Origin: Escherichia coli
Lineage (GTDB): Bacteria > Pseudomonadota > Gammaproteobacteria > Enterobacterales > Enterobacteriaceae
DNA: 64,000 nt
Strand: one strand, 5' to 3'
Assembly (NCBI RefSeq): GCF_017348835.2
Contig: NZ_CP071375.1
Positions 26,201-32,200 of this stretch are shown here, piece after piece. The position numbers are program-made. Positions within the stretch are counted from its first letter, which is position 1. Every line of letters begins with the position of its first letter.

Positions 26201-29200
26201 CCGTATCCGCACGGCTGGGATGTGTGGAGCAACGGCATCAAAAAGTTTATGGCTGAAAAGGGGATTCAGCCGGACCTGATCTACACCTCGGAAGAAGCCG
26301 ATGCGCCACAGTATATGGAACATCTGGGGATCGAAACGGTGCTGGTAGATCCGAAACGTACCTTTATGAGTATCAGCGGTGCACAGATCCGCGAAAACCC
26401 GTTCCGCTACTGGGAATATATTCCTACGGAAGTGAAGCCGTTCTTTGTGCGTACCGTGGCGATCCTTGGCGGCGAGTCGAGCGGTAAATCCACCCTGGTA
26501 AACAAACTTGCCAATATCTTCAATACCACCAGTGCGTGGGAATATGGTCGCGATTATGTCTTTTCACACCTCGGCGGTGATGAGATCGCATTGCAGTATT
26601 CCGACTACGATAAAATCGCGCTGGGCCACGCACAATACATTGATTTTGCAGTGAAATACGCCAATAAAGTGGCGTTTATTGACACTGATTTTGTCACTAC
26701 CCAGGCGTTCTGCAAAAAGTACGAAGGGCGGGAACATCCGTTCGTGCAGGCGCTGATTGATGAATACCGTTTCGATCTGGTGATCCTGCTGGAGAACAAC
26801 ACGCCGTGGGTGGCGGATGGTTTACGCAGCCTCGGCAGTTCGGTGGATCGCAAAGAGTTCCAGAACTTGCTGGTAGATATGCTGGAAGAGAACAATATCG
26901 AATTCGTGCGGGTTGAAGAGGACGATTATGACAGCCGTTTCCTGCGCTGCGTAGAGCTGGTGCGGGAGATGATGGGGGAGCAGGGATAACCGTGACGAAA
27001 CTGCTCAAAGGCGAGGTATAAAATGAGTTTTTTTGATGAGTTGAAAACCTCTCTGGAAGAGAATGTCGAGATTAGAAAGAACCTGTACGGGTGACCCGCT
27101 ACGAAATTGCGGATGCTTAGGCTATTCGTGAGCAACTTCATACTCCAACCGACCGGTTGCGTAGCCAGAATGCAATCAAATCTGACAGTTCGCTTCGGCG
27201 CGCGCTTTGGTGTATTTACCGGAGTAAATCAGCGTGCCGTGGAAAATTATGCGCAGCGCTTCTGCTGATTTGCGTACCTTCGCAGATGATAAGTCCAGCA
27301 CTGGCGCGCTGCGCGTAATACTCCGCCATCATGTCAATCGTAACGTCACCCGCACCGGCGCGGGAACGCGTCATCGGTGGCAGTACAATACGGTTTATTA
27401 ATGGCAACGCATTCAGCGCATATTTAGCAAATTACGTAATGGGTTCCTCGCGCGATTATTTATACAGTTCGGCACTCATGGTGACGGTATTGCCCATGCG
27501 AGCGCTGGTAATTTTGTATTCAGAGGCGTTCATCTCTTTCGCTTTCTGCGCAATAACCGCTTCAGCGGAATCCAGTGTTGTACCGGTTGCTGTCACGCTT
27601 TGCGCCGATGCGTTAAACGCCGCGACAGAGAAAAGAGAAGCCGTAAAAATTGCGATGATCGTTTTCATGTTTATATTCCAGAGTGTCTTAATTGTTTGGC
27701 GTTTATTAACGCGATGGGGAGAGAATACGCCTGCTGCCTGATAACATAAATGATACAAATGGCAATAGACTATTCTGTTTTTGTTAATAATCAGACGCCG
27801 GACGTGCCGACGTCTGTCAATCGCATCAGGCAACAAAGTTGTCCTTCAGCGCCTTGAGACCATCCCGATAGATGCCGGTAAACAGCGCCTCGGCTTCTTC
27901 GTCCGTCACATTCACCGGGGTGAATTCACCGAACCATTCCACACGGGAAACCTGGATGTCGGCGGTTTCATGAACGGTAATGGTGGAGAGGTAATCCACC
28001 ACCGGGAACGGTGCCTGAATAATGGAATAGGTATAACTGCGTTGACGGTTATTAAACGCTTCCAGACGTTCAACCACAGTGCCGCCGTCAGAGGTTGTCA
28101 GCGAACGAACGCGACCGCCTTCTGTCACCACACTTTTCGGGATGAATGGCAGCCAGTCTGGCAGCGCATCAAAGCCGCCCATCAATTGCCATACGGCGTC
28201 GGCAGAAGCCGGAATTTCGATCGATACAGTTGTTTTAGCCATGATAATTTTCTCTTAATTTATAGGGTTACATTGTCAGGGTGTCGACGACGCCGCCATC
28301 GACGCGCAGGGCTGCCCCTGTGGTTGCCGAGGAAAGCGGTGACGCGAGATAAACCGCCAGATTCGCCACTTCTTCCACATCTGCCGCACGCTGGATGATG
28401 GAACTCGGACGCGAGGTTTTAACAAACTCATCGGCCTGTTCACGCGCACTGCGTCCCGATTGTGCAGCGGCATCCGCCAGCATCTCTTTCAGGCCATCGG
28501 TAAAGGTTGGCCCTGGCAGAATGGCGTTGACGGTCACACCGGTCCCTGCCAGTCGTTTCGCCAGACCATGAGAAACCGCCAGATTTGCGGCTTTGGTGAC
28601 GCCGTAGTTGATCATGTCGCCAGGGATTGCCACGCCAGATTCAGACGAGACAAAGATAATCCGCCCCCAGCCCTGTTCCGTCATGCCTGGCGCATAGTGA
28701 CGCGCCAGACGAACGCCGGAGAGGACGTTGACGTTATAGAAGTGCATCCACTCATCATCCGGAACGCTAAAGAAATCTTTATCGTTAAAAATGCCCAGAT
28801 TATTGACCAGCACATCAGCCGTTGGGACTGCAGCGATCAGCGCAGCCACGCCGTCTTCGGTGCTGAGATCCGCCACCACGCCGCGCAGTGACGCTGTGGG
28901 AGTTTGTGCCGCAATCGCAGCCATGGCGTCATCAACGCCGCTCTGTTTACGGCCGACGACAACCACCGTTGCGCCTGCTTTTGCCAGTCCGGCGGCGATA
29001 CCCTGCCCAATGCCGGAGGTTGAGCCGCTGACCACCGCGACTTTACCTGTCAGATCCAGTTTCATCGTTTTCTCACCTGGTTGATTAACGGGTCGGCAGC
29101 GGAGCGTTTTCCGCAACCAGATTTTGACGGCGCATTTCTGCCCAGAATTCAGCCGGAACAGGCGCATTCAGTGCAGCCAGATCTTCTGCCATACGGCCAG

Positions 29201-32200
29201 GACGGCTGGAGCCAGGAATAACCGCTGCAACGGCCGGGTTTGCCAGCGCGAACTGCAGCGCAGCTGCTTTAACGTTCACATTGAAACGTGTGGCAATGGC
29301 ATTAATTTGCGCCACTTTCTGCTGGATGGCCGCAGAGGCTTTCTGATATTCAAAGTGCTCGCCGCCTGCCAGTACGCCAGAGCTGTATGGACCGCCCACA
29401 ATGATATCCACGTTCTGTTCCAGTGCTTCTGGCATCAGGCGTTGCAGCGCACGTTCGTGATCCAGCAGGGAATAACGCCCCGCCAGCAGGAACGCATCCG
29501 GCTTCGGTTCGTCCAGCGCCAGCGTCAGTTCGCAAGGTTCGACGCGGTTCACACCCAGTCCCCAGGCTTTAATCACACCTTCGTCACGCAAACGCGTCAG
29601 CGCACGAAATGCACCGGTACGGGCAATGTTGAACTGCTCCAGCCAGCTGTCACCGTAGAAGTCCTGCGCCGGGTCGTGGATCCAGACAATGTCCAGACGG
29701 TCTGTTTTCAGGCGTTTCAGGCTGTCTTCAATCGATCGCAGCGTGGCGTCAGCAGAGTAGTCATTCAGAATTTTGTTTTTCAGGCCGTGTTCGAACAGGC
29801 CACCTTTTTCACCGAAATCCCGTTTTGCCGGATCTTCCATTTCGTCCAGCATGATGCGACCGACTTTGCTACTCAGAACGTATTCATCGCGTGGATACTG
29901 AGACAGCGCTTCACCCATGCGGATTTCAGAAAGGCCAGAGCCGTACAGCGGCGCGGTATCAAAGTAACGCACACCCAGGTTCCAGGCTTCGCTCACGGTG
30001 GCGTGGGCCTCTTCTTCCGGAATGGCACGGAACATGTTGCCAAGTGGTGCGCCGCCTAAGCCAATTTTGCCGGGGAGTAAATTTTTAATGCTCATAAGAT
30101 GTCCTCAATTATTCGGTTTGGGTTAGGGCGTTTTTTTGCTATCGCCCTGTGACGTGGATCACAATACCTTGCGAGGTTGTGACTTGATAGGACATAATTC
30201 GTCTGACTTAAGTCCTTTGAGGTCTAACATGATTGATTTACGCCAACTGAAGTACTTCGTGGTGGTCGCAGAAGAAGAGCACGTGGGACGCGCAGCCGAG
30301 CGATTACATATCTCGCAATCGCCGCTGAGCCGCCAGATTGCACAACTGGAAGAACGACTGGGGCTGACGCTGTTTGAGCGTAATCAGCAGCGCATTCGCC
30401 TGACCGCTGATGGACAGACATTCCTTGCCGAAACACGTTCGTTGCTGACACACGCCAACCGCCTGGAGTCGTTAGGCAAACGCCTGGGACGGGGGGAAGA
30501 TGGTGGCTTGTGTATTGGCTATATCGAAAACGCCATGCATTCCGGTGTGCTTTCTACGGCGCTACGTACGTTACGTGTATCGCGTCCGAATGTGCATATC
30601 GCACTTTACAGCCAACCACCGGCTACCCAGATTGAAGGCCTGCGCCAGCGCAGTCTCGATTTTTCTCTGGTCGATACGCCGCCCACCGACAGCGAGCAGG
30701 ATCTGGAATATATTCAGGTTCTGGATGATCGAATGTTGTTGGCCTTACCGCAAAATCATCCTCTGGCGCAGGAGGAAAACCTTGTCGCGTCACAACTTGG
30801 CGATGAGCAGTGGATTGCGGTGATTCATAACGACGATGCGCATTCTCGCGATCATTTTGTCGCCGCCTGTGTTAACGCCGGGTTTAATCCTGATATTCGC
30901 CTGGAAGCGGGTGAACCCCTCACGGCATTAGGTCTGGTCGCTGCGGGATTAGGTCTGGCCTTAATTCAACATAGTCTGCGTCATAATGCGCCGGAAGGGG
31001 TGGTATTACGTGAATTGCCGTGGATGAATTATTCAACGCAATTATGGGCAGCCTGGCATAAAGCCAACCAACGTCCGCTGGTTTCCCATTTCCGCCAGAT
31101 TCTGCGCGGTGAATAAAACGTTAAGCGGGAACCATGAGTTCCCGCTTGAGTTGAGATGTCAGTCCGCATCTGAGCTAATACACTTAAAGAAAATTCTGCC
31201 TTTTTCCGGGGACTCATCATTTAACTAATGCCGGATGCGGTGCTGGCGCGCCGCTTCCGGCATTTTACGCATTACTTCGCAATACGCTTGTACTTGATAC
31301 GCTTCGGCTCCAGCGCGTCTGCGCCCAGCGTGCGTTTTTTGTACTCTTCGTATTCGGTAAAGTTACCTTCGAAGAACTCAACTTTACCTTCATCCTGGTA
31401 GTCCAGGATGTGCGTGGCGATACGGTCGAGGAACCAACGGTCGTGCGAGATAACCATCGCACAGCCCGGGAACTCCAGCAGGGCGTTTTCCAGCGCGCGC
31501 AGGGTTTCGATATCCAGGTCGTTGGTTGGTTCGTCGAGGAGCAGCATGTTGCCGCCAACCTGCAGCAGCTTCGCCAGATGCAGACGACCGCGCTCACCAC
31601 CGGAAAGTTCACCAACGCGTTTACCCTGATCAACCCCTTTAAAGTTAAAGCGGCCAACGTAGGCGCGGCTTGGCATCTCGGTGTTGCCGATCTTCATGAT
31701 ATCCAGCCCGCCGGAAACTTCTTCCCAAACGGTTTTGCTGTTATCCATTGAGTCACGGAACTGATCAACCGATGCCAGTTTCACCGTTTCACCCAAAGTG
31801 ATGGTGCCGCTGTCCGGCTGTTCCTGACCGGAGATCATACGGAACAGGGTCGATTTACCCGCGCCGTTCGGACCGATGATCCCGACGATCGCCCCTTTCG
31901 GGATCGAGAAGCTCAGGTCATCAATCAGCAGGCGATCGCCGTAGGATTTACGCAGGTTGCTGACTTCCAGCACTTTATCGCCCAGACGCGGTCCAGATGG
32001 AATAAACAGTTCGTTGGTTTCGTTACGTTTCTGATATTCGGTGCTGTTCAGTTCTTCAAAGCGCGCCAGACGTGCTTTACCTTTCGACTGACGGCCTTTA
32101 GTACCTTGACGTACCCATTCCAGCTCTTTCTCAATCGACTTACGACGCGCCGCTTCTTGTGAAGCTTCCTGCGCCAGGCGCTGATCTTTCTGCTCCAGCC

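What the first reader, a model, noticed from the sequence alone, without database searches (positions are those of the whole stretch)
26990..31271. A ~4.3 kb gene cluster between nadR and ettA: LysR regulator divergent from AKR-SDR-SRPBCC-DUF1471
As I recall K-12 MG1655, nadR and ettA are adjacent with only a short spacer. Here they are separated by ~4.3 kb holding five intact ORFs: an aldo/keto reductase, a short-chain dehydrogenase and an SRPBCC protein on the minus strand, then a DUF1471 secreted protein, with a LysR regulator transcribed divergently from the AKR. Two reductase classes plus a ligand-binding fold under a dedicated LysR regulator looks like an inducible carbonyl or electrophile reduction module, but there is no transporter and no known substrate. 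The segment also appears somewhat more GC-rich than its flanks (impression, not computed).
Basis: partly seen in the sequence, partly recalled or inferred. Interest (0 to 1): 0.65.

Follow-up and report, generated by a model that had tools for sequence, protein, structure and literature searches.

The report
Accessory LysR-controlled oxidoreductase operon island
This E. coli strain carries, between nadR and ettA, a 4 kb accessory gene cluster absent from K-12: a regulator plus three cytoplasmic enzyme or ligand-binding genes that many other bacteria also have, annotated only generically and with no known substrate.

Summary
The window is E. coli (100% identical to strain PE164). About 4.1 kb between nadR and ettA is missing from K-12 MG1655 and present, always at this site, in 482 of 5426 complete E. 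coli genomes. Pfam confirms all five assignments (AKR, SDR, SRPBCC, DUF1471, LysR). All five genes are under purifying selection. The GC impression is not supported.

- The segment sits inside a decayed nadS antitoxin gene.
- A sixth gene, an old-yellow-enzyme alkene reductase, survives only as a pseudogene. It is intact in Citrobacter, Yokenella and a cryptic Escherichia.
- The cassette LysR<->AKR-SDR-SRPBCC is widespread in Klebsiella, Enterobacter, Yersinia, Acinetobacter and Pseudomonas.
- Its invariant core is an AKR+SRPBCC pair. This pair is also found in Streptomyces, Janthinobacterium and Bacillus (there with HxlR regulators) at 71-75% AKR identity.

The divergent promoter holds a cross-phylum conserved dyad over the predicted lysR -10 and, in Enterobacteriaceae, a perfect CRP-like palindrome.

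The most likely function is inducible NAD(P)H-dependent processing of a hydrophobic carbonyl or electrophile, inferred from gene context only. No substrate is known, and the one paper found on an ortholog says the same. I rate it an uncharacterised member of known kinds, of moderate-to-low interest.

The parts
27023..27137 (+). 5' remnant of the nadS antitoxin gene, which forms the left edge of the island
   Evidence: It aligns to the 5' part of intact nadS in the relE/parE-nadS variant L094 (88% identity) and to the K-12-like nadS pseudogene. It is annotated as a 'NadS family protein, incomplete' in related E. coli.
27193..27437 (-). Pseudogene of an old-yellow-enzyme (OYE) alkene reductase. 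An N-terminal stretch plus a 71-bp internal piece are kept, and about 686 bp are deleted.
   Evidence: NCBIfam N-ethylmaleimide reductase subfamily hit at E 1e-13, only 51 bits against a cut-off of 403. Alignment to the intact 365-aa gene of L014 shows the deletion. RefSeq calls it 'alkene reductase, incomplete'. No complete E. coli genome holds an intact copy.
27456..27668 (-). DUF1471 (YdgH/BhsA/McbA family) small protein with an N-terminal signal-peptide-like segment
   Evidence: Pfam PF07338 at 3e-11. NCBIfam BhsA, RclB, YhcN and YbiJ hits all fall far below their cut-offs. The signal peptide (MKTIIAIFTASLFSVAAFNASA/QS) is read from the sequence. dN/dS is 0.00-0.18.
27764..27774 (.). Conserved palindrome AATAGnCTATT upstream of DUF1471, a possible operator of unknown regulator
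   Evidence: Conserved in Escherichia, Yokenella and Citrobacter, and nearly so in Klebsiella and Raoultella. Not followed further.
27791..27815 (-). GC-rich hairpin just after the SRPBCC stop codon, the likely end of the AKR-SDR-SRPBCC transcript
   Evidence: The inverted repeat is kept across species although its sequence differs between them. The simple terminator scan did not call it because the T-run is weak.
27826..28242 (-). SRPBCC (Polyketide_cyc2) ligand-binding-fold protein, 138 aa
   Evidence: Pfam PF10604 at 1e-29. PDB 3CNW (B. cereus 'XoxI') at 1e-52 and 3F08. There are 45 invariant columns across four phyla. It lies downstream of the AKR in 85 AKR/SRPBCC gene pairs among the loci held.
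28268..29065 (-). Classical short-chain dehydrogenase/reductase, 265 aa
   Evidence: Pfam PF13561/PF00106. The PDB ortholog is 8G9M (A. baumannii, E 9e-138), whose paper states the substrate is unknown. Motifs read from the sequence: SGSTSGIG, R39-K40, NNLG, Y154-x3-K158.
29085..30095 (-). Aldo/keto reductase, 336 aa, first gene of the operon
   Evidence: Pfam PF00248 at 7e-45. The catalytic tetrad D46/Y51/K77/H140 is invariant in ten orthologs from four phyla, with mean column identity 83%. The nearest solved relatives are plant L-galactose dehydrogenases.
30148..30163 (.). Perfect CRP-type palindrome TGTGA-N6-TCACA in the divergent promoter region
   Evidence: It is the only exact match in the 64 kb, where 0.06 is expected by chance. 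The half-sites are invariant and the spacer is variable in 11 Enterobacteriaceae. It is absent from Pseudomonas and others.
30191..30214 (.). Imperfect dyad GACTyAA-N10-TTATGTC, the candidate LysR binding site, overlapping the predicted lysR -10
   Evidence: It lies within the consensus AGACCTnnagGGACTcAAGTnntgCnnATTATGTCtT built from 69 distinct intergenic regions, Enterobacterales to Streptomyces. It is the only zero-mismatch match in the window. The promoter-like TTGCGA-18-CATAAT lies at 30169-30198.
30229..31116 (+). LysR-type transcriptional regulator, 295 aa, divergent from the AKR
   Evidence: Pfam PF00126+PF03466. The best NCBIfam hits (AlsR, PRK09986, HcaR, CatM/BenM) are all below their cut-offs. 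The nearest structures are 7W06 and BenM/CatM; 7W06/7W07 are cited in a paper on an itaconate biosensor. It co-occurs with the AKR in nearly all loci.
31123..31147 (.). 11-bp-stem hairpin immediately after the lysR stop codon
   Evidence: Found by the terminator-like scan.
31180..31271 (+). 3' remnant of nadS and the ettA-proximal spacer, which forms the right edge of the island
   Evidence: It aligns at 81.6% to the 3' end of nadS and the downstream DNA of the TA-type variant L094.

Best explanation
The segment is a non-mobile chromosomal accessory island that replaced the middle of the nadS antitoxin gene. It carries a LysR-controlled oxidoreductase cassette. Shown: the genes are intact and conserved, they keep a fixed order across many species, and the regulatory region is conserved. 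Inferred: the LysR protein binds the conserved dyad that overlaps its own promoter (autorepression). With a small-molecule inducer it activates the divergent, tightly spaced AKR-SDR-SRPBCC operon. In Enterobacteriaceae, cAMP-CRP adds a second input. The functional core is the AKR together with the small SRPBCC protein. The AKR (intact Asp-Tyr-Lys-His tetrad) and the SDR (Arg39-Lys40, which suggests NADP(H)) carry out pyridine-nucleotide-dependent carbonyl/alcohol redox steps on a hydrophobic substrate. The SRPBCC protein binds, presents or isomerises that substrate. The most likely substrate class is an environmentally derived reactive carbonyl such as a quinone, enone, enal or lactol. In the fuller island, a second unit (periplasmic DUF1471 plus an OYE alkene reductase) would reduce the activated C=C bond. 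In E. coli the OYE step has been lost.
For: Anatomy and presence/absence. Family assignments and catalytic residues. Purifying selection on all five genes (dN/dS 0.00-0.32, mostly below 0.1). Conserved synteny of LysR<->AKR-SDR-SRPBCC across Enterobacterales, Acinetobacter and Pseudomonas, in unrelated genomic neighbourhoods. AKR-SRPBCC alone with LysR in Streptomyces, Janthinobacterium and some Pseudomonas, and with HxlR or ArsR-type regulators in Bacillus-like genomes. Intergenic gaps of 19 and 25 bp inside the operon. Conserved dyad over the predicted lysR -10. CRP-like site that is unique in the window and conserved. Recurrent OYE association (intact in L014, L018, L025 and L097; a different OYE in Gottfriedia L012). 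DUF1471 resembles stress proteins (BhsA, RclB, YhcN), though below cut-off. It is established knowledge of the family (my own, not tested here) that several HxlR-family regulators respond to quinones, aldehydes or oxidants.
Against: No experiment and no literature bears on the substrate. The AKR's nearest characterised relatives oxidise sugar hemiacetals rather than reduce toxic carbonyls. The LysR's nearest structural relatives, BenM/CatM and the regulator 7W06 cited in an itaconate-biosensor paper, suggest organic-acid effectors. A CRP site is more typical of catabolic operons. The AKR promoter could not be placed: no good -10 lies at the spacing expected for a CRP site at -41.5 (my reading). 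The very high AKR conservation across phyla is unusual for broad-specificity detoxifying reductases, in my judgement, and points to one specific substrate. An AlphaFold2 model of a linker-fused AKR-SRPBCC gave pTM 0.58, so there is no evidence of a confident complex.
Confidence: 0.45

Rival explanations
1. A catabolic or salvage module. The AKR acts in the oxidative direction as an aldose/lactol 1-dehydrogenase that produces a lactone. The SDR oxidises or reduces a neighbouring hydroxyl or keto group. Expression depends on substrate (LysR) and on catabolite status (CRP). Uptake and downstream steps are supplied by genes elsewhere.
For: The best solved relatives are L-galactose dehydrogenases (E 1e-29 to 1e-19). 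JGI labels orthologs 'D-threo-aldose 1-dehydrogenase'. The SDR's nearest characterised structures are the sorbose reductase 3AI1 and hydroxybutyrate dehydrogenases. A perfect, conserved CRP-like site is present. The LysR is nearest to BenM/CatM and to 7W06, which is cited in an itaconate-biosensor paper.
Against: The conserved unit contains no transporter, kinase, lactonase, dehydratase or aldolase in any of about 90 loci. An SRPBCC hydrophobic-ligand fold has no obvious role in sugar catabolism. No NCBIfam equivalog is reached, the best being YdjG at 71 bits against a cut-off of 550. The association with OYE and HxlR regulators does not fit a sugar pathway. The CRP site is absent outside Enterobacteriaceae.
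Confidence: 0.2
2. A two-protein enzyme in which the SRPBCC protein is itself catalytic (isomerase or cyclase) or an obligate partner of the AKR. The pair makes, repairs or inactivates one specific small molecule, such as a signal, a damaged metabolite or a lactone. The SDR, DUF1471 and OYE are later lineage-specific additions.
For: The AKR+SRPBCC pair is the only part found in all four phyla. It is separated by 2-80 bp where no SDR intervenes, and it is duplicated as a pair in L102. Conservation is exceptional: 83% and 73% mean column identity, with 45 invariant SRPBCC columns. The regulator family changes (LysR, HxlR, ArsR-type) while the pair stays the same.
Against: No fused AKR-SRPBCC protein appeared among the listed homologs, which are all 136-153 aa. 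The AlphaFold2 model of the linker-fused pair had pTM 0.58. Xenorhabdus and Duganella keep LysR-AKR with no SRPBCC detected in the flanks retrieved. No catalytic residues are known for this SRPBCC subfamily.
Confidence: 0.2
3. In E. coli the island is an eroding relic without current function, carried along passively.
For: The OYE gene is a pseudogene in all 482 E. coli copies. The left end shows successive deletions, since variants carry extra TauE/SafE+wHTH or GNAT genes. One strain has an SDR-SRPBCC deletion. 91% of E. coli lack the island.
Against: All five remaining genes are full length, with dN/dS of 0.00-0.32 within E. coli and about 0.02-0.2 between genera. The promoter elements are conserved. 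Divergence of island copies (97.6-100%) is similar to that of the flanking core genes, which indicates long retention.
Confidence: 0.07

Closest known systems
Orthologous but uncharacterised proteins with solved structures: A. baumannii SDR (PDB 8G9M), B. anthracis SDR (3T4X), B. cereus 'XoxI' SRPBCC (3CNW), B. thuringiensis Q6HG14 (3F08)
   Same: The sequence matches are very strong: SDR E 9e-138 to 8G9M, and SRPBCC E 1e-52 to 3CNW. The B. cereus protein 99% identical to the 3CNW-derived query is encoded right after a 336-aa AKR of the same clade.
   Different: None has a known substrate or function. The 8G9M paper says so explicitly (PMC10889901). The names 'XoxI' and 'MxaD family' are database labels only.
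AKR clade of aldose 1-dehydrogenases (plant L-galactose dehydrogenase; 'D-threo-aldose 1-dehydrogenase' label)
   Same: Same fold and the same catalytic tetrad. These are the best characterised hits in the PDB (E 1e-29).
   Different: The match is only moderate. No NCBIfam equivalog is reached. The gene context lacks every other sugar-pathway gene.
LysR-type regulators BenM/CatM and the LysR-family regulator 7W06
   Same: Same two-domain architecture, divergent arrangement with the regulated operon, and a dyad site over the regulator's own promoter.
   Different: Similarity is only E 1e-36 to 1e-29. The NCBIfam equivalog cut-offs for AlsR, HcaR, CatM and BenM are all missed. The effector is unknown.
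AKR + OYE tandem of Pseudomonas putida M10 (morphine dehydrogenase + morphinone reductase), and the E. coli nemRA electrophile response (from my own knowledge, not tested here)
   Same: An AKR and an old yellow enzyme act on the C=O and C=C of one enone substrate. The island's OYE matches morphinone reductase at 1e-106 and NemA at about 1e-100, but matches Shewanella SYE1 best at 1e-138.
   Different: There is no orthology to MorA. The OYE is a pseudogene in this window. The regulator is LysR, not NemR.
Plant PR10/Bet v 1 (SRPBCC-superfamily) isomerase working with an AKR: neopinone isomerase + codeinone reductase (from my own knowledge)
   Same: A small SRPBCC-fold protein is paired functionally with an AKR. 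This is the kind of cooperation proposed in the novel reading.
   Different: There is no detectable sequence relationship beyond the fold class. Catalysis by this bacterial SRPBCC protein is untested.
E. coli YhaJ regulon (a LysR regulator that activates the DUF1471 gene ybiJ in response to aromatic hydroquinones; from my own knowledge)
   Same: A LysR regulator is associated with a DUF1471 protein and redox enzymes.
   Different: The DUF1471 protein here scores 26 bits against a cut-off of 110 for YbiJ. It appears to be a separate transcription unit without the LysR dyad.

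Membership tests
Aldo/keto reductase superfamily | Match to the AKR profile over the whole (alpha/beta)8 domain | tested here: met
   PF00248 at 6.9e-45, residues 10-322.
Aldo/keto reductase superfamily | Catalytic tetrad Asp-Tyr-Lys-His | tested here: met
   D46, Y51, K77 and H140 are invariant in ten orthologs from four phyla. They align with the same residues of L-galactose dehydrogenase.
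D-threo-aldose 1-dehydrogenase / L-galactose dehydrogenase (specific function) | Equivalog-level sequence similarity to a characterised enzyme | tested here: not met
   The best PDB hit is E 1e-29, in two partial stretches. No NCBIfam family is reached; the best is YdjG at 71 bits against a cut-off of 550. The JGI name is an automatic label.
D-threo-aldose 1-dehydrogenase / L-galactose dehydrogenase (specific function) | NAD(P)+-dependent oxidation of an aldose to its lactone | not testable with these tools
   Requires an enzyme assay.
Classical short-chain dehydrogenase/reductase | Profile match, Gly-rich cofactor motif, and the Ser/Tyr-x3-Lys active site | tested here: met
   PF13561 at 1.7e-43 and PF00106 at 9.9e-38. 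Read from the sequence: S13-G-S-T-S-G-I-G20, N88-N-L-G91, S141 and Y154-x3-K158. No NCBIfam equivalog cut-off is reached.
SRPBCC superfamily (Polyketide_cyc2) | Profile match and similarity to solved helix-grip-fold proteins | tested here: met
   PF10604 at 1.3e-29. 3CNW at 1e-52 and 3F08 at 2e-51.
MxaD / 'XoxI' (accessory protein of methanol dehydrogenase) | Orthology to MxaD and linkage to PQQ methanol dehydrogenase genes | tested here: not met
   Only database names suggest it. None of about 90 loci has a PQQ-dehydrogenase neighbour; the partner is always an AKR. The protein has no signal peptide (read from the sequence), whereas MxaD is periplasmic (my own knowledge).
LysR-type transcriptional regulator | N-terminal HTH_1 plus a LysR substrate-binding domain | tested here: met
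   PF00126 at 4e-24 and PF03466 at 1.1e-38.
LysR-type transcriptional regulator | Divergent arrangement with the target operon and a conserved dyad in the shared promoter region | tested here: met
   The arrangement is divergent in about 80 loci. The conserved dyad is at 30191-30214, over the predicted lysR -10. Actual binding and the effector were not tested.
Named LysR regulators (AlsR, HcaR, CatM/BenM, OxyR, GltC) | Score above the curated equivalog cut-off | tested here: not met
   AlsR scores 223 against 430, PRK09986 207 against 290, HcaR 162 against 356, and CatM 111 against 580.
DUF1471 / YdgH-BhsA-McbA family | Profile match and a small secreted protein | tested here: met
   PF07338 at 3.3e-11. 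The signal-peptide-like N-terminus is read from the sequence. The specific BhsA, RclB, YhcN and YbiJ equivalogs are not reached, at 26-31 bits against cut-offs of 90-125.
Old yellow enzyme (alkene reductase) | Full-length FMN-binding TIM-barrel ORF | tested here: not met
   Only residues about 3-61 plus a 71-bp internal piece remain in the window, scoring 51 bits against a cut-off of 403. It is therefore a pseudogene. The intact 365-aa gene is present in L014, L018, L025 and L097.
Classical mobile genomic island | Integrase or transposase, tRNA target, flanking direct repeats, deviant composition | tested here: not met
   The 4.3 kb holds no such gene. No tRNA lies within 20 kb. There is no flanking direct repeat beyond chance. 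GC is within the range of the flanks. Horizontal exchange is still indicated: the island is 97.7% identical to that of a cryptic Escherichia whose core flanks are only 92.7% identical, and it sits at another locus there.
Type II toxin-antitoxin relE/parE-nadS | Intact toxin and antitoxin genes | tested here: not met
   Only the 5' and 3' remnants of nadS remain, and the toxin gene is absent. An intact pair is present at this site in other E. coli.

The most novel reading that the evidence does not exclude
The 336-aa AKR and the 138-aa SRPBCC protein form an obligate two-protein enzyme system, with the SRPBCC protein acting as a carrier or isomerase alongside the reductase/dehydrogenase. The pair is conserved at 71-75% (AKR) and 55-65% (SRPBCC) identity from E. 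coli to Streptomyces and Bacillus. It would act on one specific, widely encountered small molecule, for example a damaged or reactive metabolite or a common plant or fungal lactol or quinone. Different lineages have placed the pair under different sensor regulators (LysR, HxlR). That would define a new bacterial enzyme system analogous to the plant PR10-AKR pairs.
Probability: 0.15. Interest if true: 0.6.

Novelty: new member of a known kind. Interest (0 to 1): 0.33.

Why it matters
For E. coli biology this is one of many lineage-restricted accessory clusters, and the genes are already annotated generically in RefSeq. The wider point is that the cassette appears in very many Klebsiella pneumoniae assemblies and is common in Enterobacter, Citrobacter, Yersinia, Acinetobacter and fluorescent Pseudomonas. 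Its AKR+SRPBCC core is kept almost unchanged across four phyla. Three orthologs have been crystallised by structural-genomics efforts, yet no substrate, inducer or phenotype is known. The conserved LysR dyad and promoter give a ready reporter for an inducer screen, so the function question can be tested directly. If the substrate turns out to be a host- or plant-derived electrophile, it would add a defined stress-defence module to several clinically important species.

Tried and rejected
- **Literature searches.** I searched for 'XoxI' (only unrelated hits), the RefSeq protein accessions (none), keyword combinations of SRPBCC, AKR, SDR, LysR, HxlR and polyketide cyclase (none relevant), and nadR+yjjK+genomic island (none). 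Two searches failed on syntax.
- **PDB-code search.** It gave only the A. baumannii SDR paper, which reports no function.
- **Rfam scan of 26900-31400.** Nothing credible: one miRNA model at E 0.63.
- **Hairpin next to the CRP site (30126-30147).** RNAalifold shows little covariation, with one pair changed on both sides in two sequences. I do not claim it as an RNA element.
- **Placing the AKR promoter.** No acceptable -10 lies at the spacing expected for a CRP site at -41.5 or a LysR site at -65. The promoter remains unresolved.
- **AlphaFold2 on a GGGGS-linked AKR-SRPBCC fusion with a 12-row paired alignment.** The model had pTM 0.58 and mean pLDDT 74.7. This is uninformative about a complex, because the alignment is shallow and no PAE is returned.
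- **Classical island hallmarks.** Direct repeats, tRNA, integrase and GC deviation are all absent.
- **MxaD-like role for the SRPBCC protein.** Rejected on gene context and the lack of a signal peptide.

Full report
**1. What is in the window**

The window is Escherichia coli: 25000-33500 is 100% identical to strain PE164 from a pig. The local gene order is radA, nadR (ends 26989), a 4282-bp spacer, ettA (31272-32939, minus strand), then slt.

- DUF1471 at 27456-27668(-)
- SRPBCC at 27826-28242(-)
- SDR at 28268-29065(-)
- AKR at 29085-30095(-)
- LysR at 30229-31116(+), divergent from the AKR

Pfam confirms each family, and NCBIfam agrees without reaching any named equivalog. In K-12 MG1655, nadR and ettA are 307 bp apart with nothing between them.

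**2. Boundaries and history of the segment**

Compared with a K-12-like genome, window 27124-31248 replaces 140 bp of REP-type sequence. Some E. coli carry an intact relE/parE-nadS toxin-antitoxin pair at this site. Compared with those, the window keeps the first ~115 bp of nadS (27023-27137) and the last part of nadS plus the ettA-proximal spacer (31180-31271). The island therefore sits inside a decayed nadS gene, and the toxin gene is gone.

The island-specific DNA occurs in 482 of 5426 complete E. coli genomes (8.9%). It is always single-copy, chromosomal and at this site, and is 97.6-100% identical. Larger variants carry TauE/SafE plus a winged-helix gene, or a GNAT acetyltransferase, between the nadS remnant and the rest. 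One strain has a deletion that fuses the SDR and SRPBCC genes.

The classical hallmarks of a mobile island are absent:
- There is no integrase gene.
- There is no tRNA within 20 kb.
- There is no flanking direct repeat beyond chance.
- There is no compositional deviation.

Horizontal exchange is nevertheless indicated. A cryptic Escherichia (record 'E. coli E69', locus L014) has core flanks only 92.7% identical to E. coli, and carries the island next to pitA/yhiN/uspA. Its island is 97.7% identical to the window's, with dS of 0.06-0.09.

**3. A sixth gene, now dead**

Between DUF1471 and the nadS remnant lies the wreck of an old-yellow-enzyme (OYE) alkene reductase at 27193-27437. It retains an N-terminal stretch and a 71-bp internal piece, and about 686 bp are deleted.

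The intact 365-aa gene follows DUF1471 by 18 bp in L014, Yokenella and Citrobacter farmeri, and lies nearby in Providencia. It has decayed independently in E. whittamii (internal deletion) and in Trabulsiella odontotermitis (frameshift). No complete E. coli genome has an intact copy. Its closest solved relative is Shewanella SYE1 (1e-138), ahead of morphinone reductase, NemA and PETN reductase.

**4. The cassette elsewhere**

AKR homologs of 85-97% identity occur in:
- Trabulsiella, Yokenella, Yersinia, Raoultella and Klebsiella
- Serratia, Providencia, Xenorhabdus, Ewingella and Acinetobacter

Homologs of 72-78% identity occur in many fluorescent Pseudomonas, Duganella, Janthinobacterium, Streptomyces and Gottfriedia.

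The order LysR<->AKR-SDR-SRPBCC is kept in almost every gammaproteobacterial locus among the best 80 species-level loci, within unrelated neighbourhoods. Klebsiella pneumoniae carries the five-gene form next to crl-frsA-gpt. The index lists that SRPBCC protein in more than 2400 blocks of assemblies. A 331-kb Ewingella plasmid and several Burkholderiaceae replicons also carry the cassette.

In Streptomyces, Janthinobacterium and a few Pseudomonas the SDR is absent, and the unit is LysR<->AKR-SRPBCC. In Bacillus cereus the same 336-aa AKR and 138-aa SRPBCC protein sit beside two HxlR-family regulator genes; that SRPBCC protein is 99% identical to my reconstruction of the 3CNW sequence. In Gottfriedia the order is OYE-HxlR-AKR-SRPBCC. 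Lysinibacillus has the bare pair. One Bacillus-like record has the pair duplicated in tandem.

The minimal unit across phyla is therefore AKR+SRPBCC. The SDR was added in Gammaproteobacteria, and DUF1471 (with or without OYE) in Enterobacterales.

Conservation is striking. Ten AKRs from four phyla share 83% mean column identity, with the D46/Y51/K77/H140 tetrad invariant. The SRPBCC proteins share 73%, with 45 invariant columns. All five window genes show dN/dS of 0.00-0.32, mostly below 0.1, against relatives from E. coli to Yersinia.

**5. Regulatory region (30096-30228)**

The lysR-proximal ~45 bp are conserved from E. coli to Streptomyces. The consensus is AGACCTnnagGGACTcAAGTnntgCnnATTATGTCtT. 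This stretch includes the lysR Shine-Dalgarno, a promoter-like TTGCGA-18-CATAAT, and an imperfect dyad GACTyAA-N10-TTATGTC at 30191-30214. The dyad covers the predicted -10 and is the only zero-mismatch match in the window. This is the layout expected for an autoregulating LysR-type activator, but binding itself is inferred.

At 30148-30163 there is a perfect TGTGA-N6-TCACA. It is the only one in 64 kb, where 0.06 is expected by chance. Its half-sites are invariant and its spacer varies in 11 Enterobacteriaceae, and it is absent from Pseudomonas and beyond. I read it as a CRP site, which is also an inference. I could not place the AKR promoter convincingly.

The operon genes are 19 and 25 bp apart. 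After the SRPBCC gene there is a hairpin whose sequence differs between species while its pairing is kept. A 157-bp spacer with a conserved AATAGnCTATT palindrome then precedes DUF1471. DUF1471 (with OYE in the fuller island) is therefore probably a separate transcription unit.

**6. What it probably does**

Shown: an intact, selected and widely conserved four-gene cassette with its own regulator and conserved operator, plus two NAD(P)-dependent oxidoreductases with complete active sites and a small helix-grip-fold ligand-binding protein.

Inferred: ligand-dependent activation by LysR of a cytoplasmic redox pathway for a hydrophobic carbonyl compound.

I favour a reactive carbonyl or electrophile (quinone, enone, enal or lactol) as the substrate, for four reasons:
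- The unit repeatedly recruits an OYE alkene reductase.
- In Firmicutes it is paired with HxlR-family regulators.
- In enterics it is followed by a DUF1471 protein that resembles stress proteins.
- It never carries transport or central-metabolism genes.

Against this reading:
- The AKR's nearest characterised relatives are aldose 1-dehydrogenases.
- The LysR is nearest to BenM/CatM and to 7W06, a regulator cited in an itaconate-biosensor paper.
- The CRP-like site fits a catabolic operon.
- The near-invariance of the AKR suggests one precise substrate rather than broad detoxification.

I therefore give the main explanation 0.45, a catabolic lactol or sugar role 0.2, a specific two-protein AKR-SRPBCC enzyme 0.2 (this overlaps in part with the first), and 'eroding relic' 0.07. 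An AlphaFold2 model of a linker-fused AKR-SRPBCC gave pTM 0.58. That neither supports nor excludes a complex.

**7. Comparison with what is known, and novelty**

Every protein is a clear member of a known superfamily, and none reaches a named functional family. Orthologs have been crystallised without functional assignment (8G9M, 3T4X, 3CNW, 3F08). The 2024 paper on 8G9M states that the natural substrate is unknown. Database names such as 'XoxI' and 'MxaD family protein' are not backed by context, because the partner is always an AKR and never a PQQ dehydrogenase.

I found no paper on the cluster, its regulator, or this nadR-ettA variable site.

The finding is real and correctly described, but it is an uncharacterised member of known kinds and is already annotated generically in RefSeq. 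It is common outside E. coli. Its main value is as a well-defined target for function discovery.

Noticed in passing
window 27193-27437: Pseudogene of an SYE1/NemA-type old yellow enzyme. All 482 island-bearing E. coli share the same internal deletion. The gene is intact in Citrobacter farmeri, Yokenella, Providencia and a cryptic Escherichia. It has decayed independently in E. whittamii (L015) and Trabulsiella odontotermitis (L023).
   Followed up: yes
window 26990-27137 and 31180-31271; L094 2382-3000; L002 2635-2774: The nadR-ettA spacer is a variable site in E. coli. The forms seen are an intact relE/parE-nadS toxin-antitoxin pair, a nadS remnant plus REP elements (K-12 type), the island, the island plus TauE/SafE and a winged-helix gene, the island plus a GNAT gene, and an IS1 insertion in one strain.
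   Followed up: partly
window 30148-30163: Perfect CRP-type palindrome TGTGACGTGGATCACA. It is the only exact match in the 64 kb. It is conserved in Enterobacteriaceae orthologous promoters and absent in Pseudomonas, Streptomyces and Janthinobacterium.
   Followed up: yes
window 30126-30147: Inverted repeat GGGCG-N12-CGCCC directly beside the CRP-like site. Its pairing is kept in most Enterobacteriaceae, with a few compensating changes. Yersinia, Raoultella and Klebsiella have a second small hairpin inserted downstream. Its meaning is unknown.
   Followed up: partly
window 27764-27774: Conserved palindrome AATAGACTATT in the spacer upstream of the DUF1471 gene. It may be an operator for an unidentified regulator of the DUF1471(-OYE) unit.
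   Followed up: no
L015 (Escherichia whittamii) 4946-8944: The island looks mosaic relative to the window. LysR, AKR and SDR have dS of 0.07-0.09, whereas SRPBCC and DUF1471 have dS of 0.30-0.48. This suggests a recombination breakpoint inside the cassette.
   Followed up: no
L014 (record 'E. coli E69') 1-13008: This GTDB species representative, labelled E. coli, is only about 92.7% identical to E. coli in pitA-yhiN-uspA core DNA, so it is a cryptic Escherichia lineage. It carries the island with an intact OYE at a different chromosomal site.
   Followed up: partly
L016 (MAG 'Collinsella sp.' contig, 1397 bp): A short contig in a Collinsella metagenome bin encodes the AKR at 99% identity to E. 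coli and has the same 133-bp intergenic region. It is almost certainly a binning contaminant.
   Followed up: no
L102 (record 'Vibrio vulnificus' SMZZ01000001.1): This locus has a small acid-soluble spore protein gene and Bacillus-like AKR-SRPBCC pairs in tandem duplicate, so the record is probably mislabelled or contaminated. The tandem duplication of the pair as a unit is itself notable.
   Followed up: no
window 29085-30095 and orthologs (alignment A4): The accessory AKR keeps 71-75% identity between E. coli, Pseudomonas, Janthinobacterium, Streptomyces and Bacillus-type genomes, with 83% mean column identity. In my judgement this is unusually high for a non-essential oxidoreductase.
   Followed up: partly
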